Shown here piece by piece: positions 200 through 19,156 of a DNA stretch of 20,163 bases. The translations under genes and the position numbers were made by a program. Origin of the DNA: a virus. Lineage: Duplodnaviria > Heunggongvirae > Uroviricota > Caudoviricetes. The DNA is taken from the IMG/VR virus record IMGVR_UViG_2718218396_000005. One strand, 5' to 3'. Each line of letters opens with the position of its first letter. The stretch's first letter is position 1. The notes beneath the pieces were generated by a model, which was not told the DNA's origin, ran no database searches, and saw only the letters and a list, made by a program, of their open reading frames with translations.

Positions 200-253
200 T
201 GAACCGCCCCGGGAATCCTGGAGACTAAACTCCCTGAGAAAGAGGTAAACAGG

Positions 254-3862: not shown

Positions 3863-4026
3863 TCACGGTTGTGTGCTTTGAGCACATAGAAGACTTTGTG
3901 GCAGATATTGCCGTTATTTTTAACTGGTCGCCCGCCGAAATCTTCATGATGACGCCCGGCGAAGTGGTTAGCTGGCGTGAGCGGGCGGCACTTCGCAGCG
4001 GGAATGCAGACAATGAAGACTCTTGA
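3497..4026 (+). CDS. Tail assembly chaperone E+E' made by programmed -1 ribosomal frameshift at 3808-3814
   Basis: Zero-frame codons AAT TTT TTG place the heptamer T TTT TTG at 3808-3814. After a -1 slip the reading continues ERCGLWREERTGDGSLITVVCFEHIEDFVADIAVIFNWSPAEIFMMTPGEVVSWRERAALRSGNADNEDS to the stop at 4024-4026, which is the 78-aa track ORF 3790..4026. Confidence 0.75.
3808..3814 (+). promoter_or_regulatory. Slippery heptamer T_TTT_TTG for the E/E' -1 frameshift
   Basis: X XXY YYZ motif in the E zero frame, with the -1 frame open downstream for 70 codons. Confidence 0.7.
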
Positions 4027-6103
4027 TATCCGGGTCGCTTTCAGCGCCGTTGACAGGCTGACCCGACCTGCCGAAAACGCACGCCGCCTGATGGGGCAGT
4101 TTGGTGACTCCATCCAGCGAACGCAGGGGGCGATCAAAAATCTCGAGCGTCAGGCGCGATCATTTGAGCGCGCCCGCGACGCTGTCAGTAAAGCGGATGC
4201 TGGCATCGTGAAAGCACGACGCCAGCTTAACGCCCTTAATCAGTTACAACGCACGGGTACAGTGCTCAGCGAAAAACAACAAAAGCTGATGCAGCAGTTA
4301 AGCACCCGGCTTGAACGCCTGAATGAATCGCGCACACGGGAAATTCAGAAAATGAGGGAACTTGGCGGAGAGCTGAAACGCCACGGCATTTCCCTGACAG
4401 GCAGCGATAACACCATTCAGCAGGCCATCAGACGCACCGAACAATACAACAACCAGCTTGAACGCGAACGGCAGGCGCTTGCGCGTGTAACGCAGGCGCG
4501 TGAGCGGTATTCGCACGCGCAGGAAACCGCGGGAAAACTGAAAACAGGTGGTGCGCTGGCAATTGGTGCGGCAGCGGCGGGCGGCTATGCTGCCGGGCGT
4601 TTTTTGCAGCCTGCGATCGGGTTCGGCAAAGAGATGTCCCGCGTTCAGGCACTGACGCGAATCGACAAAAACAGCCCGCAGTTTAAGGCGCTGCGTGAGC
4701 AGGCGTTAAAACTTGCTGAAACACAGTTTACTGCGAGTGATGCCGCCAGTGGGCAGAGCTTTCTGGCAATGGCTGGTTTTACTCCGCAGGCCATTCAGGC
4801 CGCATTGCCCGGTGTTCTTAATATGGCGCTGGCAGGTGGCGTCGAACTCGGCGAGACGGCTGATATAGGCTCCAATATCCTCACACAGTTCAACCTGACA
4901 GCCGATCAAATGGACCGGGTGGGCGATACGCTGACAGCAGCATTTACCCGGACCAATACTGATTTACGCGCGCTGGGCGAAACCATGAAGTATACCGGTC
5001 CGGTTGCCGCAAAACTTGGTATCAGTCTTGAAGAAGCGGCGGCCATGGCCGGGATGCTTGCCAATAATGGTCTTCGCGGAAGCGATGCTGGCACGGCCAT
5101 GCGCGCAAGTCTGTCCCGCCTTGCATCACCGCCAAAAGCTGCGGCTGATGCACTGAAAGAGCTGGGGGTGTCAGTTGCTGAGGCCAGAGGCAAAATGCGC
5201 CCGATGGAGGATGTGCTGCTTGATCTCTATAAGGCGACACAAAAATACGGACAGGTGGACCAGGTCTCCTTCTTCAAGGACATCGCCGGAGAAGAGGCGT
5301 TCGTTGGTTTGCAGACGCTTGTTGCGGCGGCTGGTTCAGGAGAGCTGCAAAAACTGACCAGAGAATTGCAGGGGGCAAGGGGAGAGGCCGATCGCGTCGC
5401 AAAAGTAATGGCTGATAATCTTGATGGGGACCTGAAAAATCTCGACAGCGCATGGGAAGGTCTTCGTATTCGCATCAGTGATCTGGTTGACGGTCCGCTG
5501 CGTTCTGTCACGCAGTGGCTCACGCGGGTGCTTGAAAAAATCACCTCGCTGGCGCAGGCCCATCCGGTACTGACGCGCCAGCTACTGATAGCAGGCGGTG
5601 CGTTGCTGGCAATGACTGCAACGATTGGCTCGTTGTCGCTGGTTATTGGGGTGCTTTACGGGAAGCTGGCCACCCTGCGTCTTGGTTTTGACATTCTTAC
5701 CCGGTCAATGAATGTCGTCAGGGTGTTACCTGCGCTATGGGGAATGGTGACGGGTTCCGTTTCTTTACTGGGAGGCGTTATCGGGGCGTTGTTCAGTCCG
5801 GTTGGTCTTATCGTGGCTGCGCTTGCCGGAGCTGCCGTTCTTATCTGGAAATACTGGGATCCTATCAGGGCTTTCTTTGCCGGGGTGTTCAGCGGGATTA
5901 TGGAAAGGCTGACCCCGTTGCGCGACACCTTTGAACGGTTTGGCCCTGTTTTTGACGTAATCGGAAGCGGTTCAGCCAGGTGTTTAACTGGTTTAAATCG
6001 CTGCTGTCACCGATGGAGTCCAGCAAGGAAACGCTGGATAAATGTACCAGTGCTGGCGAGGTATTCGGTAACGTTCTTGGTGGTGCGTTACAGCTTGTTC
6101 TGA
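4013..6103 (+). CDS. T: Tail tape measure protein (P2 gpT family), N-terminal and central part, ending prematurely after an apparent frameshift near 5956-5980
   Basis: Long ORF straight after E/E'. Coiled-coil-rich N-terminal third, alanine/glycine-rich central part and hydrophobic segments are typical of tape measure proteins. ATG 4013 (MKTLDIRV) is preferred over the track's GTG 3977 because it overlaps the E' end. The last 45 codons (RCLTGLNRCCHRWSP...) look like out-of-frame junk. Confidence 0.75.
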   Translation: MKTLDIRVAFSAVDRLTRPAENARRLMGQFGDSIQRTQGAIKNLERQARSFERARDAVSKADAGIVKARRQLNALNQLQRTGTVLSEKQQKLMQQLSTRLERLNESRTREIQKMRELGGELKRHGISLTGSDNTIQQAIRRTEQYNNQLERERQALARVTQARERYSHAQETAGKLKTGGALAIGAAAAGGYAAGRFLQPAIGFGKEMSRVQALTRIDKNSPQFKALREQALKLAETQFTASDAASGQSFLAMAGFTPQAIQAALPGVLNMALAGGVELGETADIGSNILTQFNLTADQMDRVGDTLTAAFTRTNTDLRALGETMKYTGPVAAKLGISLEEAAAMAGMLANNGLRGSDAGTAMRASLSRLASPPKAAADALKELGVSVAEARGKMRPMEDVLLDLYKATQKYGQVDQVSFFKDIAGEEAFVGLQTLVAAAGSGELQKLTRELQGARGEADRVAKVMADNLDGDLKNLDSAWEGLRIRISDLVDGPLRSVTQWLTRVLEKITSLAQAHPVLTRQLLIAGGALLAMTATIGSLSLVIGVLYGKLATLRLGFDILTRSMNVVRVLPALWGMVTGSVSLLGGVIGALFSPVGLIVAALAGAAVLIWKYWDPIRAFFAGVFSGIMERLTPLRDTFERFGPVFDVIGSGSARCLTGLNRCCHRWSPARKRWINVPVLARYSVTFLVVRYSLF

Positions 6104-6816
6104 CGCCTGCAAAAATGTTGCTGGATACGCTGGCGTGGATACTTGAAAAACTCGGTGTGCTTCCGGATGAAGCGGAAAGGGCGCGCAAGAAAATCGAAGA
6201 CGCACAACGTGCGGCCATTCTTCAGGACAAGGTTGCTCTGTTTCAGGGAGACATTGCGAAAATCAATCCGCCGAAGTCTGCGGGAAATAGCAATGGCACC
6301 GGAGATGATAAACCCAAAGACAACAAACCTCTCACAGACAGCAATACCGGCACGCTACGCAGACTCAGCAAAATTGCTGATAACACAGGTAAGCTGGTTG
6401 ATGAGACAAAAAAACGCATTGGCCCCGGCGATATTGTCTTTAAGAACCTGCCCCGCGCACTTGCTGTTCGTGGGGAGTGGCAGGAGCGGAAGATTGCGCA
6501 GGTCAGTAAGCCTGCCCCCGCAATTAATATCACACCCGTGGTCCCGGCTCCGCTGCCTCCGGCGCTGGTCCCTGTTGTTGCGGCCAGCTCCCGCCCGGTG
6601 GTGGAGGCCATACGATCGCCAGTGGCATCAGTTCCTGCAACTTCCCGTAACCGGGAGCCTGTTGCCTCCGGATTTGGCGGTGAAATTCATGTTCATCTGC
6701 ATAACGTTGTTACGCAGAATCCCCGCGAACTGGCGAAACTGGTCGGCGAAATGGTCAGGGCAGAAATGGAACGGCGCGCCCGTGCCAGGCGTGGCAGTTT
6801 TTACGATAAAGATTGA
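5956..6816 (+). CDS. T: Tail tape measure protein, C-terminal part in the +1 frame (continuation of gene T after the frameshift)
   Basis: This frame opens after a stop at 5953-5955 and reads ..SQVFNWFKSLLSPMESSKETL... to a stop at 6814-6816 immediately before the U gene. The track starts this ORF at GTG 5980. Confidence 0.65.
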   Translation, partial: RNRKRFSQVFNWFKSLLSPMESSKETLDKCTSAGEVFGNVLGGALQLVLTPAKMLLDTLAWILEKLGVLPDEAERARKKIEDAQRAAILQDKVALFQGDIAKINPPKSAGNSNGTGDDKPKDNKPLTDSNTGTLRRLSKIADNTGKLVDETKKRIGPGDIVFKNLPRALAVRGEWQERKIAQVSKPAPAINITPVVPAPLPPALVPVVAASSRPVVEAIRSPVASVPATSRNREPVASGFGGEIHVHLHNVVTQNPRELAKLVGEMVRAEMERRARARRGSFYDKD

Positions 6817-6828
6817 GGAGTCATGGCC

Positions 6829-7317
6829 ATGATGATGATCTACGGCATGTTTGTTTTTGAGCTGCGCACGTTGCCGCATCAGCAGTTACAGCAAAACAAA
6901 AGCTGGCGACATGTGAAAAATGAACGCGTTAACCGTTCAGCAAGCTGGCAGTATATCGGTGCAGGTGATGATCGCATCGTTCTTTCTGGTGTTCTTTATC
7001 CTGAGATTACTGGTGGCGAAGTGTCGCTGTCGTTGTTGACCACGCAGGCATATACAGGACGTCCTTGGCCTTTGATTGATGGCGTCGGGCAGATTTACGG
7101 CATGTATGTCCTGACCGGAACGAATACGACCCGCTCCGAGTTTGATCGCTACGGTAAGGCGAAAAAGATAGAATTTTCACTGACTCTTGAACGCTGTGAT
7201 GAGGATTTGCGGGAGCGCCTGCAATCCTCATCGTTCAGCGATATGCTGTCCGGCTTCAAAGATAAGGTGACATCATCCCTTAATAGCGCGGCCAGCTCAG
7301 TTAAGGGGCTGCTCTGA
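6829..7317 (+). CDS. U: Tail protein U (P2 gpU family)
   Basis: ORF 6823..7317 in the track. ATG 6829 is preferred because GAGGAG at 6815-6820 is 8 nt upstream. N-terminus MMMIYGMFVFELRTLPHQQLQ resembles what I recall of gpU, and it directly follows the tape measure gene. Confidence 0.8.
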   Translation: MMMIYGMFVFELRTLPHQQLQQNKSWRHVKNERVNRSASWQYIGAGDDRIVLSGVLYPEITGGEVSLSLLTTQAYTGRPWPLIDGVGQIYGMYVLTGTNTTRSEFDRYGKAKKIEFSLTLERCDEDLRERLQSSSFSDMLSGFKDKVTSSLNSAASSVKGLL

Positions 7318-7473
7318 TTTAACGTATGTCGCCAATTTCCTGATGAAGGTGACTGGCGACTTGCTGTTGTATGTCCTTCTCAGAAAATTGTTTTTGAATA
7401 ACAAATAACAGGATTTTATAATCTCTTAACCTTATAACATGTGTGGTCTGAAATAATAATTAAGGAGATTATC

Positions 7474-8046
7474 GTGCTATCTTACTTAATGGCAATTCAC
7501 TTTGTTTTATTTGGAAACTCTACTAATTTAAAAAACTTCTGGAAACATGAAGTAATTCGGCGGAAACGTATGGATATCTGGAGGCTTTTAAGAGAGAAAA
7601 AACAGCGTAACCGGAATTTCCTTTTCTGGTGGCGGTTGGCTAACGAAATGTATATTAATGGTAATAAATTACATAAGAAAGCAGCCAAAAAGTTAAACAG
7701 TAAAATAATTAACAAGTTTGGTTGTGAAATAGGATTGGGCGCAAATATTGGAAAAGGGTTGACAATTCCCCATCATGCTGGAATTGTTGTTCATTTTGCT
7801 GTTGATGCGGGTGAAAATCTGGTATTACGACAGAATACTACCATTGGACAGATAGATGGTGATATGCCTAGTTCAAGAGTAAAAATTGGTAGTAACGTTG
7901 ATATCGGAGCTAATTGTTGCATCATTGGATTATCACGTAAAATTGGGGATAATGTAAAAATAGGTGCAATGTCTTTTATAAATAAAGATATACCATCAAA
8001 CTGCACATATATAACTAAAAAGAGTGGTGTTGTATTGTATAAATAG
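7474..8046 (+). CDS. Hexapeptide-repeat (left-handed beta-helix) acyltransferase, serine O-acetyltransferase-like; low-GC cargo gene
   Basis: Strong RBS TAAGGAG at 7461-7467 with GTG 7474 at 6 nt (ATG 7489 is an alternative; the track's GTG 7441 would put the RBS inside the gene). Hexapeptide repeats IGLGANIGKGLTI / HHAGIVVHF / IGSNVDIGANCCIIG / IGDNVKIGAMSFI, and an N-terminal helical segment resembling CysE/WcaB-type acetyltransferases. Visibly AT-rich relative to the flanking tail genes. Confidence 0.75.
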   Translation: MLSYLMAIHFVLFGNSTNLKNFWKHEVIRRKRMDIWRLLREKKQRNRNFLFWWRLANEMYINGNKLHKKAAKKLNSKIINKFGCEIGLGANIGKGLTIPHHAGIVVHFAVDAGENLVLRQNTTIGQIDGDMPSSRVKIGSNVDIGANCCIIGLSRKIGDNVKIGAMSFINKDIPSNCTYITKKSGVVLYK

Positions 8047-8055
8047 AGTACATAA

Positions 8056-8090
8056 AGCCATCGATATTTCTGTCGATGGCTTTTTCTTTT
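8056..8090. terminator. Rho-independent terminator between the convergent acetyltransferase and tfa genes
   Basis: Perfect 8-bp stem GCCATCGA (8057-8064) / TCGATGGC (8073-8080) with an 8-nt loop, followed by TTTTTCTTTT (8081-8090). It starts 10 nt after the acetyltransferase stop and abuts the tfa stop codon. Confidence 0.65.
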
Positions 8091-8622
8091 TATTGTGGGG
8101 CGACTGGCCACTCAACATCCGCTGCTACTGTTGTATCAACACGATTCAACAATACCCGATATGTCTTCCATGCAGCCAGTAACGATGCCTCTTCCTCCGT
8201 CGCAATATCCAAATCTACGGCATCCTGAAGTGGCGCAATATGCTCACTGGCTACCTGCATCAGGCTGTTTTTTGTTTCTTCTGCCTCCCGTACCCGAAAC
8301 AGTTTTTCTGCTTCTGCATCTTTCGCCCAGGATGTGCCGTTCCACTTCTGACACTCTCCATCCGGCGACAACCAGGTAACATTTTCCGGTAACGGACCGA
8401 GTTCAGAAATAAATAACGCGTCGCCGGAAGCCACGTCATAAACCGTTTTACCCCGATGATCTTCAACGAGATGCCACGATGCCTCATTACTGTTGAAAAC
8501 AGCCACGAAGCCAGCCGGAATATCTGGCGGTGCAATATCGGTACTGTTTGCTGGCAGACCTGTATGAGGCGGAATGTATGCGTCACCTTCACCAATAAAT
8601 TCATTAGTTCCGGCCAGCAGAT
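8090..8622 (-). pseudogene. tfa: Tail fibre assembly protein (Tfa / P2 gpG family), 5' end removed by the IS629 copy at 8623
   Basis: Track ORF 8090..8506 ([57 protein letters not shown]...). The same frame stays open upstream to the IS boundary, reading [39 protein letters not shown] before the GTG. This matches my memory of E. coli Tfa proteins, which have about 15 more residues at the N-terminus. Confidence 0.7.
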
Positions 8623-9679
8623 TGAACCGCCCCGGGAATCCTGGAGACTAAACTCCCTGAGAAAGAGGTAAACAGGATGACTAAAAATACACGTTTTTCC
8701 CCCGAGGTCCGTCAACGGGCAGTCCGTATGGTTCTGGAAAGTCAGGGCGAATATGACTCACAATGGGCGGCAATTCGTTCCATTGCCCCAAAGATTGGCT
8801 GTACACCAGAGACTCTGCGTGTGTGGGTTCGTCAGCATGAGCGGGATACCGGGGGCGGTGATGGTGGACTCACCACCGCTGAACGTCAGCGTCTGAAAGA
8901 GCTGGAACGTGAAAATCGTGAACTGCGCCGCAGTAACGATATCCTTCGCCAGGCTTCCGCTTATTTTGCGAAGGCGGAGTTCGACCGCCTCTGGAAAAAA
9001 TAATGCCGCTGCTGGATAAGCTGCGTGAGCAGTACGGGGTCGGACCGGTATGCAGTGAACTGCATATTGCCCCGTCAACGTATTACCACTGTCAGCAACA
9101 GCGACATCATCCGGATAAACGCAGTGCCCGTGCGCAGCGCGATGACTGGCTGAAGAGAGAGATACAGCGCGTATACGATGAAAATCATCAGGTGTACGGT
9201 GTGCGTAAAGTCTGGCGCCAGTTGTTACGCGAAGGTATCAGGGTGGCCAGATGTACAGTGGCGCGCCTCATGGCGGTTATGGGACTTGCCGGTGTTCTCC
9301 GGGGTAAAAAGGTCCGTACTACCGTCAGCCGGAAAGCCGTTTCCGCAGGCGACCGCGTAAACCGTCAGTTCGTGGCAGAACGTCCTGACCAGCTGTGGGT
9401 GGCTGATTTTACTTACGTCAGCACATGGCAGGGCTTCGTCTATGTGGCGTTCATCATTGATGTGTTTTCCGGATGTATCGTGGGGTGGCGAGTCTCATCG
9501 TCTATGGAAACGACATTCGTGCTGGATGCACTGGAGCAGGCGTTGTGGGCCCGTCGGCCGTCCGGCACAGTCCATCACAGTGATAAAGGTTCTCAGTATG
9601 TATCACTGGCCTATACGGAGCGACTAAAAGAAGCAAAACTGCTGGCATCAACAGGGAGTACAGGTGACTCGTATGACAA
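8623..9679 (+). mobile_element. IS629-like element, second copy, truncated at the 3' end (first 1057 of 1310 bp); no right inverted repeat and no target duplication
   Basis: Colinear with copy 1 from the left end TGAACCGCCCCGG (8623) through position 9679, with one mismatch seen in the translation (copy 1 T353 vs copy 2 C8776; OrfA Cys vs Arg). From 9680 the sequence is unrelated and AT-rich. Confidence 0.8.
8677..9003 (+). CDS. IS629-like transposase OrfA (copy 2)
   Basis: 108-aa ORF identical to copy 1 OrfA except C->R at residue 34. Confidence 0.8.
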
Positions 9680-9692
9680 TGTATTTTATTAG
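9003..9692 (+). pseudogene. IS629-like transposase OrfB, truncated (about 225 of 295 codons); the ORF reads through the deletion junction
   Basis: Identical to copy 1 OrfB through ..STGDSYDN, then 3 junction-derived codons (VFY) and a stop. It lacks the C-terminal part including the E of the DDE region, so this copy cannot supply its own catalytic subunit. Confidence 0.8.
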
Positions 9693-9711: not shown

Positions 9712-10026
9712 TTATTCTGGGAATAAGGTCTGAATATTCTTTTTTATTTTATAAAAATTGCATTCAACTCCGCTAGGCTGATTAGCCTGGTATGTTTCCT
9801 TGATGCTAACGGTATTGAAGGGGAGGTTGTCCTCTGGCCATTCGGCCATCCAGTAGGCAAATGCTGGGTTGCGCTTTATGAGTGCTAGCCCAGCCAGAAA
9901 GGCCGCGCGTTGCGCGCGGCTGCGTTCGGAGGCTGGCAGGCTATCGAGGTAATTGCACGCCTCCTGTTCACTCTTGACGGCGGCGGGCTTCAGATAGAAA
10001 CTTATCCGTCTGGTTGGTGTCGTCAT
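9712..10026 (-). CDS. parR: ParR-like ribbon-helix-helix centromere-binding protein (type II partition adaptor)
   Basis: 104-aa ORF just downstream of parM. N-terminal region ISFYLKPAAVKSEQEACNYLDSLPASERSRAQRAAFLAGLAL parallels R1 ParR as I recall it (IAFKLNPDV.....DTLDSIPQGERSRLNRAALTAGLAL). It ends soon after a ..LFPE motif, so it is shorter than R1 ParR. Confidence 0.7.
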   Translation of the reverse strand: MTTPTRRISFYLKPAAVKSEQEACNYLDSLPASERSRAQRAAFLAGLALIKRNPAFAYWMAEWPEDNLPFNTVSIKETYQANQPSGVECNFYKIKKNIQTLFPE

Positions 10027-10030
10027 TGGT

Positions 10031-10990
10031 TTACTCCTTGTTCATTGCGTACAACCCATTAACCAGAGCAAACTGTGGCACCCCGTCCGCGATGAAAGTC
10101 GCATTAACTCCGCAGGCTTCGCGGATAGCGGTTGCCACAATCTCCGCCCCGCCACCGACAACCATCACCCGCCCGTAACCCGAAAAAACCGCCAGCGCGC
10201 GGATCACGCGTTGTTTCAGTGTTTCTTCCTTTTCACGAATAACCGCCATCAGGCTGGCGTAATGCGCGTCATTGTGGATGTGCTGGCGCAGCCAGGCTTC
10301 ATCATGGCGATGTTCGATAATGGTATTGGCGATGTGGTGACTGGTGCGCATACCGTTAGTGGCCATCACCGACAGTACGGCATCGGCCATCAGAGAAACG
10401 CCTACGTGTGGATCGCAAAACACCTGGCTGATACCTGCCAGTTGCCCCTGAACCTTTGCCACATCCAGCGTGGTTCCGCCCAAATCCACAATCAGCAGGG
10501 ATTCAAACGGACTCATGTCAGCCAGTGCCTTAAAGCCAGCAGGAATGGATTCAGGCATAACCCGTACGTTACGGATAGTGAATGCTTCGCCGTTCTGGTA
10601 CTCCACCGGGCGCATGACGTTCGCTTTTTTGCGGTTGATGTTGGCCATGTCCGGCTGTGCGTTTGTATCGAAATACTCGCTCAGTGGCAGGGTGACAACC
10701 ACATCCACTTCCTGTGGTGTGATGCCTGATTTGACCAGCGCGTGATGAATGGCAATTACATTCACATCGCTGTACTGGTATTGCGTGTCGGTCGTCTGGA
10801 CAAAGCGATCGCTGACCGGATCAAAACCATAGCGCACGCCATCAAGCATGTAGTTCGCGGGCTGCGTGCCACCGAATGGCGCAGACCATTCCGACTTGAA
10901 GCTGTTCGGGCTGATGGCGTTGCGGCGTTCGCCGTTCTCAGTCCATGCCAGCTTGATGTTGGTGGAGCCGTCGTCGATACAAATTTTCAT
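10031..10990 (-). CDS. parM: ParM/StbA-like actin-fold ATPase (type II plasmid partition motor)
   Basis: 319-aa ORF. Blocks IDDGSTNIKL, ISPNSFK, YSDVNV..HHAL, MPESIPAG, DLGGTTLD, GVSL, GGGAE and LVNGLY line up along the whole length with R1 ParM as I recall it. Confidence 0.8.
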   Translation of the reverse strand: MKICIDDGSTNIKLAWTENGERRNAISPNSFKSEWSAPFGGTQPANYMLDGVRYGFDPVSDRFVQTTDTQYQYSDVNVIAIHHALVKSGITPQEVDVVVTLPLSEYFDTNAQPDMANINRKKANVMRPVEYQNGEAFTIRNVRVMPESIPAGFKALADMSPFESLLIVDLGGTTLDVAKVQGQLAGISQVFCDPHVGVSLMADAVLSVMATNGMRTSHHIANTIIEHRHDEAWLRQHIHNDAHYASLMAVIREKEETLKQRVIRALAVFSGYGRVMVVGGGAEIVATAIREACGVNATFIADGVPQFALVNGLYAMNKE

Positions 10991-18128: not shown

Positions 18129-18779
18129 ATGGCCGTCAACTCAAACGGTTCAAACAATCGCGTTGCTGGGCGTGATTTTCACGAAAAGAATATTCAGATA
18201 GAGCGATATGATGGTTCTCATACCGTCAATATCGCAATCCCTTCGAATAATGATGATGACGATCGCCCTTTGCTTAAGGCTCAGCGTAAGGAGCTAAATA
18301 GCTTGGTTGCTGCTATTGCAGAAGCTAGCAATACTGAAGCGTTTATTATTTGGCAAAAAGTACATGCGGAGATTGGTGTAGCTGGTATTGATGATATGAC
18401 AGTAAATCAATATAAAACAGCGGAGAGTTTTCTGCATGCAATGCTTGAGCGATGTAAAGATCATGATGCCTGTAAGGCTCTTGTAAGTTTATTACTACGT
18501 AACAGTGAAGACTGTGGACTTCGACAAAAACTTCTGCGGTATTGCCATATCAATTTCGGTACAGGACGTTTAAACGATCTTACTCGTTCTCAGTTACAGT
18601 CTGCATTGTCGTGGTTAGAGCAACAATCGGCATCAAGCCACATAGAGAGTTCGACCTTACCAGAAGTCCGACTTCGTGCTTCAGAATTAATCCGACTTTA
18701 TCCAAAAGAAATAATATTCTTTATCTGCGTAGGGGTTTTGGTAGGCGGTGTCATTTCTAGGGCGTTTTTTAATTTGTAA
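18129..18779 (+). CDS. Hypothetical tail-anchored membrane protein (216 aa); AT-rich cargo gene between repressor and integrase
   Basis: ORF in the track with a GGGAGG RBS at 18118-18123. Soluble N-terminal domain plus a C-terminal hydrophobic segment (IIFFICVGVLVGGVISRAFF). Its N-terminus repeats a motif from the repressor C-terminus. Confidence 0.6.
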   Translation: MAVNSNGSNNRVAGRDFHEKNIQIERYDGSHTVNIAIPSNNDDDDRPLLKAQRKELNSLVAAIAEASNTEAFIIWQKVHAEIGVAGIDDMTVNQYKTAESFLHAMLERCKDHDACKALVSLLLRNSEDCGLRQKLLRYCHINFGTGRLNDLTRSQLQSALSWLEQQSASSHIESSTLPEVRLRASELIRLYPKEIIFFICVGVLVGGVISRAFFNL

Positions 18780-18808: not shown

Positions 18809-19156
18809 ATGAAAGTAAAAAAGGTTCAACTATTAGTTACTTTTTTATCTATGTTTTCTTTTTCCGCCGTCGCAATGCCTTTTAAAACTATTGAACGTGA
18901 GAGTTTCAATGGGGTATGGCCATTTAATACTGATGAGGTTCAATTACAGTGTCTTGATGGTAATCCTTATGTGATGAATTTTGACGATAATAAGTTATAT
19001 GCACTTACAGGTTTGGCTCGAATAAAAGGTAAAACATTTGGTGCGTTACCGTTAGATAACAATAATCCATTTTGGCTAGATAATGATGCCGCCCCAGGGT
19101 TAAAAAAGAGTCTGGGGGATGTCACTAAGGCTGCATTTGATTTATGTGATAAGTAA
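18809..19156 (+). CDS. Hypothetical small exported protein (115 aa) with N-terminal signal peptide; AT-rich cargo gene
   Basis: ORF in the track with an N-terminal hydrophobic stretch ending in an AVA-type motif (LVTFLSMFSFSAVAMPF). Two cysteines (C48, C113) could form a disulfide. Confidence 0.6.
   Translation: MKVKKVQLLVTFLSMFSFSAVAMPFKTIERESFNGVWPFNTDEVQLQCLDGNPYVMNFDDNKLYALTGLARIKGKTFGALPLDNNNPFWLDNDAAPGLKKSLGDVTKAAFDLCDK

What the first reader, a model, noticed from the sequence alone, without database searches (positions are those of the whole stretch)
7318..8092. Low-GC serine-acetyltransferase-like hexapeptide enzyme as a stand-alone cargo gene between the tail operon and tfa
A single AT-rich gene with its own strong RBS and its own terminator is wedged between U and the tail fibre assembly gene, convergent with tfa. 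If the FI-U inversion is undone, the gene lies between tfa and FI, which corresponds to the P2 Z/fun cargo locus, a second slot I recall as a defence and moron hotspot. Hexapeptide acetyltransferases carried by phages can O-acetylate surface polysaccharide (the NeuO type of lysogenic conversion) or modify small molecules. Either would be a fitness or exclusion function rather than a structural one.
Basis: partly seen in the sequence, partly recalled or inferred. Interest (0 to 1): 0.62.

Follow-up and report, generated by a model that had tools for sequence, protein, structure and literature searches.

The report
Prophage acetyltransferase cargo beside tail-fibre genes
An intact, AT-rich gene for a serine-acetyltransferase-shaped enzyme sits as foreign cargo next to the tail-fibre chaperone gene of a decayed P2-like prophage of E. 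coli O157:H7; it is not a real cysteine-pathway enzyme and most likely acetylates a cell-surface sugar (probably the LPS core), so it is an ordinary kind of prophage 'conversion' gene, but from a widespread family nobody has tested.

Summary
A 190-aa ORF (7474-8046, +) with 34% GC, an AAGGAG ribosome-binding site and a strong terminator lies between gpU and a convergent tfa gene. The window is the defective P2-like prophage of E. coli O157:H7.

In P2-like phages with the canonical gene order, 65-67% identical homologues sit exactly between G/tfa and FI, which is the P2 Z/fun moron slot.

The gene moves as a 1.8-kb cassette with tfa and the fibre tip between P2-like, P1-like and other myoviruses. 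It is under purifying selection.

Family members also sit inside a chromosomal waa (LPS core) operon. In other prophages they are paired with GT9, GT25 or HtrL/YibB genes.

Best reading (inferred, untested): an acetyl-CoA-dependent O-acetyltransferase of LPS core or another envelope glycan, acting in lysogenic conversion or receptor masking. It is a new member of a known kind and of moderate interest.

The parts
6823..7317 (+). gpU tail gene, the last gene of the inverted FI-U late operon; upstream neighbour of the cargo gene
   Evidence: Pfam Phage_P2_GpU, 131.5 bits. RefSeq annotates it as 'phage tail protein'.
7394..7422 (+). sigma-70 promoter-like site (TTGAAT, 17 nt, TATAAT) upstream of the cargo gene; weak evidence
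   Evidence: 10 of 12 consensus matches, but the scan is not enriched over shuffles. The site is identical in intact P2-like relatives and differs in JL22 and L174.
7462..7467 (+). Shine-Dalgarno AAGGAG, 6 nt before the GTG start
   Evidence: Read directly from the sequence.
7474..8046 (+). CDS of 190 aa: a SAT-fold left-handed beta-helix (hexapeptide) acetyltransferase, phrog_2154, RefSeq WP_000954203.1
8054..8083 (+). intrinsic terminator hairpin (13-bp stem) followed by a T-run, lying between the two convergent stop codons
   Evidence: Folding gives -18.1 kcal/mol, z = -6.2.
8090..8620 (-). tail fibre assembly gene (lambda Tfa / P2 G type), convergent with the cargo gene. Its 5' end is cut off by an IS3-family element.
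   Evidence: Caudo_TAP, 138 bits. RefSeq CDS. The full-length orthologue is 89% identical to lambda Tfa. Homology to relatives stops at 8623.
8623..8647 (.). IS3-family terminal inverted repeat. It marks the point where the fibre, baseplate and head genes were replaced in O157.
   Evidence: An IS3-family transposase remnant lies at 8677-9680.

Best explanation
The gene encodes a soluble, cytoplasmic, acetyl-CoA-dependent O-acetyltransferase with the serine-acetyltransferase architecture: a helical N-domain followed by a left-handed beta-helix. It has lost the L-serine pocket.

It is a moron in the P2 Z/fun slot, immediately downstream of tfa and convergent with it. It is exchanged between phage families as one cassette with tfa and the receptor-binding tip of the tail fibre.

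Its most likely acceptor is a sugar of the LPS core, acetylated on the cytoplasmic face during core assembly. Failing that, the acceptor is another envelope glycan. Acetylation would change the lysogen's surface, giving lysogenic conversion, and may mask receptors against superinfecting or re-adsorbing phages.

Shown: the gene anatomy, the fold, the retained catalytic dyad, the lost serine pocket, the slot, the cassette mobility, purifying selection and the associations with LPS-core genes.

Inferred: the acceptor, the biological role, and expression in O157.
For: Fold.
- The second model has pLDDT 91.1 and pTM 0.87.
- phmmer against PDB gives CysE at 1.5e-12.

Catalysis.
- EcCysE His158 aligns with H100, conserved in 41 of 42 family members.
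- Asp143 aligns with E85, which is always D or E in the family (residue roles from PMC8786284).

Not CysE.
- The Asp92 segment is absent.
- Asp157, Arg192 and His193 align to variable positions.
- There is no C-terminal tail.
- Scores are TIGR01172 62 bits against a 210 cut-off, and EpsC 76 against 150.

Soluble. The maximum Kyte-Doolittle hydropathy over 19 residues is 1.1.

Selection. dN/dS is 0.02-0.26.

Slot and cassette.
- The same order is found in intact prophages.
- The canonical Z/fun slot is occupied in L174-L178.
- A 1.8-kb block (SAT + tfa + the last ~610 nt of the fibre gene) is 96% identical between an O104:H4 P2-like prophage and the P1-like phage JL22. It is 88% identical to a third myovirus-type prophage.
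- A convergent tfa follows the gene in 64 of 76 IMG/VR loci.
- The same adjacency occurs in phiNP and Hafnia yong2, where the SAT homologue is 35-44% identical.
- SAT and tfa identities fall together in tiers.

Links to LPS core.
- A family member scoring 235 bits against the family HMM (CysE scores 70) lies in the Leminorella grimontii operon waaP-waaB-waaI-waaY-waaZ-SAT, followed by a convergent waaL. All neighbours score above NCBIfam cut-offs.
- In a Halomonas MAG a WaaZ-like gene lies directly upstream of the homologue.
- Prophage pairs occur: SAT + GT25 in Xenorhabdus, SAT + a GT9 heptosyltransferase-like gene in Morganella, and SAT + HtrL_YibB. HtrL_YibB and GT25 are LOS-locus families according to PMC4172580.

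Precedent. An AT-rich acyltransferase moron, NeaT, sits in the same slot and alters surface behaviour (PMC3573123).
Against: - There is no biochemical or phenotypic evidence for any member of the family.
- The JL22 authors state that the reason for the gene is unknown.
- Many homologues sit in uninformative chromosomal, plasmid or island contexts.
- The neighbouring GT genes in prophages could be independent morons sharing a popular slot.
- The linked fibre tip and Tfa are of the lambda Stf / T4 gp37 type. From memory, these often use OmpC as well as LPS, so masking of the linked fibre's receptor is uncertain.
- I know of no reported O-acetyl group in E. coli core types (from memory, not checked).
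- In O157 the fibre gene is deleted and the prophage is defective. Because O157 is clonal, conservation there proves nothing.
- The promoter call is no better than chance.
- The rank correlation of SAT and tfa divergence is weak (rho 0.29, p 0.05). It is carried by a few divergence tiers.
Confidence: 0.5

Rival explanations
1. It O-acetylates a different envelope polysaccharide (O-antigen unit, colanic acid, ECA or capsule) at the nucleotide-sugar or undecaprenyl-linked stage. This would be a WcaB- or NeuO-type conversion rather than a core modification.
For: - The next-best curated families after EpsC and CysE are WcaB, at 54-56 bits.
- The low GC content resembles that of polysaccharide gene clusters (general knowledge).
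- The Rosenbergiella homologue is divergent from an Acyl_transf_3+SGNH (OafA-like) gene.
- A UDP-glucose dehydrogenase gene lies next to the Halomonas homologue.
Against: - All curated cut-offs are missed by a wide margin.
- No homologue examined was found inside an O-antigen, colanic acid or capsule cluster with Wzx/Wzy or export genes.
- The specific partners found (WaaZ, a waa operon, GT9, GT25, HtrL) point to core/LOS.
Confidence: 0.22
2. It is a genuine serine O-acetyltransferase, as RefSeq annotates it: an auxiliary metabolic gene that boosts O-acetylserine and cysteine supply.
For: - RefSeq and phage annotations call it one.
- The closest solved structures are all CysE.
- The catalytic His and acidic partner are retained.
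Against: - TIGR01172 scores 62 bits against a 210 cut-off, and PRK11132 scores 37 against 397.
- The Asp92 segment is missing.
- Asp157, Arg192 and His193 are not conserved.
- The CysK-binding C-terminus is absent.
- The gene neighbourhoods concern tail fibres and LPS, never cys genes. The one exception is a distant Pseudomonas relative next to a sulfate permease.
Confidence: 0.05
3. It acetylates a small molecule or a macromolecule inside the cell: a xenobiotic or antibiotic, a metabolite, or a component of an invading phage. On this reading it is a resistance or anti-phage defence gene of the Z/fun hotspot.
For: - The slot is a recognised defence/moron hotspot.
- P2 fun(Z) in the same place blocks T5.
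- Many hotspot genes of unknown function turn out to be defensive.
Against: - There is no PADLOC match.
- No Vat or CatB family appears among the 25 NCBIfam families shown (of 28 found).
- A single LbH enzyme is not a known defence architecture (from memory).
Confidence: 0.1
4. It serves the virion: it modifies or helps assemble the tail fibre it always accompanies.
For: The tail-to-tail adjacency to tfa or the fibre gene is conserved from 35% to 100% identity across several phage backbones.
Against: - The gene is on the opposite strand with its own terminator.
- Its base composition is foreign.
- It is absent from lambdoid and P2-like phages whose Tfa is about 90% identical.
- It also occurs in a waa operon, on plasmids and in islands with no phage genes.
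Confidence: 0.05
5. In O157:H7 it is a silent relic of a dead prophage, with no current function.
For: - The prophage has IS insertions, a frameshifted tape-measure gene and a large deletion.
- The promoter evidence is weak.
- O157 is clonal, so its 100% identity is uninformative.
Against: - The ORF, RBS and terminator are intact.
- The family as a whole is under purifying selection.
- Proteins of prophage CP-933T (from memory, the EDL933 name for this prophage; the equivalence was not checked here) were detected at a relatively high rate in an O157 proteome. This protein was not specifically checked (PMC3210124).
Confidence: 0.08

Closest known systems
CysE, serine O-acetyltransferase (e.g. 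E. coli 1T3D, soybean 4N69)
   Same: - Same catalytic His and acidic partner.
   Different: - 190 aa rather than 273 aa.
- Lacks the first helices and the Asp92 segment.
- The serine-binding residues Asp157, Arg192 and His193 are not conserved.
- No CysK-binding C-terminal tail.
- Scores about 150 bits below the equivalog cut-off.
WcaB (colanic acid O-acetyltransferase) and EpsC-type short SAT-like polysaccharide acetyltransferases
   Same: - Short SAT-like LbH enzymes that acetylate sugars in the cytoplasm.
- They are the best curated family hits: EpsC 76 bits, WcaB 54-56 bits.
   Different: - Far below the curated cut-offs of 150 and about 195 bits.
- Not located in a colanic acid or EPS cluster.
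- Forms its own small family: 64 representative clusters at E < 1e-30, within 7,437 at 1e-10.
NeuO of prophage CUS-3 (polysialic acid O-acetyltransferase)
   Same: A phage-borne LbH acetyltransferase that converts a surface glycan. This is the kind of function proposed here.
   Different: - No 5' heptanucleotide repeats, so no phase variation.
- A different phage slot.
NeaT of CFT073 P2-like prophage phi-b0847 (PMC3573123)
   Same: - Same slot (moron position 2, between G and FI).
- Same opposite orientation.
- Same very low GC (30%).
- Also an acyltransferase.
- Shown to change aggregation and phagocyte interaction.
   Different: Not homologous. NeaT is an integral-membrane Acyl_transf_3 (PF01757) protein, whereas this one is a soluble LbH enzyme.
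P2 Fun(Z)
   Same: Same locus and same orientation relative to G/tfa. It is non-essential and is a lysogenic-conversion or exclusion gene, blocking T5.
   Different: An unrelated 528-aa protein. In the window's lineage the FI-U operon is inverted, so the cargo gene lies downstream of U on the same strand.
T5 Llp and phi80/N15 Cor (receptor-blocking genes encoded beside the receptor-binding gene; from memory)
   Same: The same logic: an exclusion function genetically linked to, and exchanged with, the receptor-binding module.
   Different: Those are small lipoproteins or membrane proteins that block FhuA directly. Here the proposed action is enzymatic modification of a glycan, and it is unproven.

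Membership tests
Left-handed beta-helix (hexapeptide) acyltransferase superfamily | Hexapeptide repeats forming an LbH domain | tested here: met
   - The model has pLDDT 91.
- phmmer finds 35 PDB LbH chains.
- Pfam Hexapep scores 24.4 bits, just under its 27-bit cut-off, for this protein. Most relatives carry PF00132.
Left-handed beta-helix (hexapeptide) acyltransferase superfamily | Conserved catalytic histidine with an acidic partner | tested here: met
   H100 is conserved in 41 of 42 family members. E85 is D in 23 and E in 19. They align with EcCysE His158 and Asp143.
CysE serine O-acetyltransferase | Score above the curated equivalog cut-off | tested here: not met
   TIGR01172 scores 62.4 bits against 210.65. 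PRK11132 scores 36.6 against 397.
CysE serine O-acetyltransferase | L-serine/cysteine pocket residues (Asp92, Asp157, Arg192, His193; E. coli numbering) | tested here: not met
   The Asp92 segment is gapped in all 42 family members. Asp157 aligns with P99, Arg192 with S134 and His193 with R135, all at variable columns. The role of Asp92 comes from PMC13040420. The roles of the other three are from memory.
CysE serine O-acetyltransferase | C-terminal tail that docks into CysK (cysteine synthase complex) | tested here: not met
   The protein ends about 10 residues after the last LbH turn. The roughly 40-residue CysE tail has no counterpart.
CysE serine O-acetyltransferase | Serine acetyltransferase activity or cysE complementation | not testable with these tools
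   Needs an enzyme assay or genetics.
WcaB colanic acid acetyltransferase | Equivalog score, and location in the wca cluster | tested here: not met
   Scores are 54-56 bits against cut-offs of about 195. The gene lies in a prophage.
NeuO / NeuD sialic-acid acetyltransferases | NeuD/NnaD subfamily score; for NeuO, phase-variable 5' heptanucleotide repeats | tested here: not met
   [not shown]
Xenobiotic acetyltransferases (Vat / CatB) | Sequence or structure closest to the XAT class | tested here: not met
   [not shown]
P2 Z/fun-slot moron (moron position 2) | Lies between G/tfa and FI, on the opposite strand to G; non-conserved among P2-like phages; foreign base composition; own expression signals | tested here: met
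   - Canonical arrangement in L174-L178.
- P2 reference order.
- The slot is defined in PMC3573123 and bioRxiv 2024.10.15.618418.
- GC 0.34.
- RBS and terminator.
- Present in 530 of 5,426 E. coli genomes.
Known anti-phage defence systems (PADLOC-DB 2.0) | Match to any model of a defence protein | tested here: not met
   0 families at E <= 1.
LPS-core modifying enzymes (waa-locus accessory genes) | Residence in, or operon-like pairing with, LPS core biosynthesis genes | tested here: inconclusive
   - Met for relatives: the Leminorella waa operon, a WaaZ-like partner in Halomonas, and GT25, GT9 and HtrL partners in prophages.
- Not met for the window copy itself, whose neighbours are gpU and tfa.
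LPS-core modifying enzymes (waa-locus accessory genes) | Acetyl group demonstrated on core oligosaccharide | not testable with these tools
   Needs LPS mass spectrometry or NMR.

The most novel reading that the evidence does not exclude
The enzyme is the catalytic counterpart of receptor-blocking proteins such as T5 Llp or phi80 Cor. On this reading it is a cytoplasmic SAT-fold O-acetyltransferase that decorates the enterobacterial LPS core. It has been inherited and swapped for a long time as one cassette with the fibre tip and chaperone whose adsorption it controls. That would be a core-level (not O-antigen) lysogenic conversion, present in about 10% of E. coli genomes and in P2-like, P1-like and other myoviruses.
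Probability: 0.27. Interest if true: 0.7.

Novelty: new member of a known kind. Interest (0 to 1): 0.45.

Why it matters
If the inference holds, roughly one E. coli genome in ten carries a phage-delivered enzyme that alters the LPS core or another surface glycan. That includes apparently all O157:H7 genomes and many O103, O111 and O104:H4 strains.

- Such a change could shift phage susceptibility, which matters for phage therapy, phage-based O157 detection and P1 transduction.
- It could also shift serology and innate immune recognition.
- It would correct a misleading database name, 'serine O-acetyltransferase', which has already led authors to discuss cysteine metabolism.
- It would give a concrete, easily testable example of an exclusion-type gene that is exchanged together with the receptor-binding module.

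If the inference fails, the gene is still a clean marker of the tfa/fibre-tip recombination cassette shared by P2-like and P1-like phages.

Tried and rejected
- PADLOC search: nothing found.
- Rfam scan of 7000-8700: no leader or riboswitch upstream. The only real hit, IS009, lies inside tfa.
- Tandem-repeat search for NeuO-like phase variation: none.
- First structure model from 42 sequences: the LbH part had pLDDT 47-74, so its Foldseek scores were weak. It was superseded by the 106-sequence model.
Only about 14 loci belonged to the family.
- Neighbourhoods of several chromosomal homologues were uninformative. These were Citrobacter, Erwinia, Pantoea, Obesumbacterium and a Pseudomonas.
- Literature searches for a characterised member, for CP-933T expression of this gene, and for core O-acetyltransferases gave nothing specific.
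- The idea that the FI-U inversion is an IS-mediated O157 rearrangement was rejected. Intact prophages in other serotypes share it.
- The idea that the linked fibre's receptor could be named was abandoned. The tip belongs to the broad gp37/Stf family, and there is no characterised phage above 79% identity.
Full report
**What is there**

The window matches E. coli O157:H7 chromosomes at 100% identity. It covers a degraded P2-like prophage beside yecA and the tRNA-Gly-Cys-Leu cluster. The gene order is:
- a D remnant (-);
- FI (+), split by IS1203;
- FII, E, E', a frameshifted T, and U (+);
- the cargo gene (+);
- tfa (-), cut at its 5' end by an IS3-family element;
- ParR and ParM, the replication gene A and the early genes (-);
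- the repressor and the integrase (+).

The cargo ORF runs from GTG 7474 to the stop at 8046, giving 190 aa. AAGGAG lies six bases upstream of the start. RefSeq uses the same start, orthologues have ATG at that codon, and the residues before the internal ATG are conserved in the family.

GC content is 0.339 (GC3 0.279), against about 0.50 in gpU and tfa. A 13-bp hairpin with a T-run at 8054-8083 folds at -18.1 kcal/mol (z = -6.2). A promoter-like site at 7394-7422 is conserved in close relatives. The scan is not enriched over shuffled sequence, so the promoter is not established.

**What the protein is**

Sequence searches place it in the CysE/WcaB-like branch of the hexapeptide transferases, but below every curated threshold. 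EpsC scores 76 bits against 150, CysE 62 against 210, WcaB about 55 against 195, and NeuD 31 against 161. Pfam Hexapep scores 24.4 against 27. PHROGs files it in phrog_2154, 'unknown function'. PADLOC has nothing.

I aligned the family to E. coli CysE, after confirming that my CysE sequence is identical to 1T3D. The results were:
- The general-base histidine is conserved: His158 aligns with H100, present in 41 of 42 members.
- Its acidic partner is conserved: Asp143 aligns with E85, always D or E. The residue roles come from PMC8786284.
- The segment holding Asp92 is missing.
- Asp157, Arg192 and His193 fall on variable columns.
- The C-terminal tail is absent.

There is no transmembrane segment. 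Pairwise dN/dS among orthologues is 0.02-0.26.

So the protein is a functional, soluble acetyltransferase with a SAT fold that should not act on serine.

**Where it sits, and how it moves**

Intact P2-like prophages of O103, O104:H4 and strain A1 show the same order: D(-) | FI..U(+) SAT(+) | tfa(-) H(-) I J W V. The FI-U inversion is therefore a lineage trait.

In P2 the order is G-> <-fun(Z) FI->. IMG/VR contigs L174-L178 have exactly that canonical order, with a 65-67% identical homologue in place of fun(Z). Two papers define this position as the second P2 moron/hotspot (PMC3573123; bioRxiv 2024.10.15.618418). A third notes a hotspot within the tail genes (PMC13586616).

The gene does not move alone. 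A 1.8-kb block made of the gene, tfa and the last ~610 nt of the fibre gene is 96% identical between an O104:H4 P2-like prophage and the P1-like phage JL22. It is 88% identical to a third type of myovirus prophage. The left boundary falls at the start codon. In JL22 the block lies inside the Cin-invertible segment.

Of 76 IMG/VR loci that have a downstream ORF, 64 have a convergent tfa within 120 nt, including loci whose SAT is only 45-67% identical. The same tail-to-tail arrangement occurs in Citrobacter phage phiNP and Hafnia phage yong2, where the SAT homologue is 35-44% identical. It also occurs next to fibre genes in Buttiauxella, Proteus and Pseudocitrobacter prophages.

SAT and tfa identities fall in parallel tiers, although the rank correlation is weak (rho 0.29).

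The gene is not needed by the fibre. Lambda and many lambdoid and P2-like phages have about 90% identical Tfa proteins and no such gene.

Overall, 530 of 5,426 complete E. coli genomes carry it, and 66 of the copies are on P1-like plasmids.

**What it probably acts on**

The informative contexts all point the same way.
- In Leminorella grimontii a bona fide family member (235 bits against the family HMM; CysE scores 70) is the last gene of waaP-waaB-waaI-waaY-waaZ. It lies just before a convergent waaL. Each neighbour scores above its NCBIfam equivalog cut-off.
- A Halomonas MAG has a WaaZ-like gene directly upstream of its homologue.
- In Xenorhabdus prophages the homologue is followed on the same strand by a GT25 gene.
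- In Morganella it is followed by a GT9 heptosyltransferase-like gene.
- In IMG/VR loci L179 and L180 it faces an HtrL/YibB gene.
- In the Xenorhabdus and Morganella prophages the cargo genes lie at the distal end of the fibre gene; for L179 and L180 the genes beyond HtrL/YibB could not be identified.
- GT25 and HtrL_YibB are families found in LOS outer-core loci (PMC4172580).
- The closest relatives of the Leminorella protein are again phage-borne.

I therefore propose O-acetylation of an LPS core sugar on the cytoplasmic face, with another envelope glycan as the main alternative.

A role in receptor masking is suggested by the linkage to the receptor-binding cassette. It is also suggested by the non-homologous acyltransferase NeaT in the same slot, which changes surface behaviour. 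No experiment supports this for the present family. The only paper that comments on the gene says its role is unknown (PMC9603915). Another merely lists it as 'fitness' cargo (PMC6456863).

**Caveats**
- Many homologues lie in uninformative places: the EPEC bfp plasmid, a Salmonella island, and various chromosomal sites.
- The prophage-borne GT genes might be independent cargo.
- The linked fibre tip is of the broad gp37/Stf type, whose receptor here is unknown.
- In O157 the fibre gene is gone and the clone's uniformity says nothing about selection.

**Verdict**

The object is an already annotated (and mis-named) but uncharacterised member of a known kind, a prophage conversion acetyltransferase. 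It comes with a new and testable hypothesis about its target and about its coupling to the tail-fibre module.

Noticed in passing
window 3977-6816: The tape-measure gene T is split into two overlapping frames (ORFs 3977-6103 and 5980-6816). RefSeq marks it 'frameshifted', whereas intact relatives have one 935-aa gene.
   Followed up: partly
window 200-224, 1485-1509, 8623-8647; IS1203 ~1481-2694; IS3-family remnant 8677-9680: Three copies of the IS3-family terminal repeat TGAACCGCCCCGGGAATCCTGGAGA. One IS splits FI. Another cuts the 5' end of tfa and replaces the fibre, baseplate, lysis and head genes.
   Followed up: partly
window 9712-10990 (-): A ParM/StbA plus plasmid-stability (ParR-like) pair sits next to the replication gene A, in the old/tin hotspot. 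Rousset et al. 2022 report such a partition system in about a quarter of P2-like phages.
   Followed up: partly
window 8127-8325 (-): Rfam family IS009 (RF02111) matches at 191 bits (gathering score 117), entirely inside the tfa coding sequence. The 'RNA family' may simply be conserved tfa DNA.
   Followed up: no
window 18129-18779 and 18809-19156 (+): Two low-GC (about 0.36) genes lie between the repressor and the integrase: a 216-aa protein with no family and a DUF2511 protein. Neither has a PADLOC hit. This may be another cargo slot.
   Followed up: partly
L002 (phage JL22) 4401-5002 and 9263-9864: 602-nt inverted repeats (99% complementary) next to cin enclose U, the acetyltransferase gene, tfa and the fibre tip. 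In P1-like phages the gene therefore lies inside the invertible C segment.
   Followed up: yes
L172 5208-6017 (-): In one IMG/VR contig a Macro-domain protein (PF01661, 76 bits) lies directly upstream of tfa, where the fibre gene's 3' end is expected.
   Followed up: no
L014-L017 5001-5594: A 50%-identical homologue lies just downstream of the type IV pilus genes (prepilin peptidase, SLT) on EPEC plasmids, among IS66 copies. There is no phage context.
   Followed up: no
L025 469-6815 (Leminorella grimontii): The waa locus reads waaP-waaB-waaI-waaY-waaZ-acetyltransferase, followed by a convergent waaL. This is a core-biosynthesis operon with a SAT-like gene in the position where Salmonella (from memory) has waaK.
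   Followed up: yes
L197/L198 2477-5040 (Rosenbergiella): A chromosomal homologue is divergently paired with an Acyl_transf_3+SGNH (OafA-like) glycan O-acetyltransferase gene.
   Followed up: no
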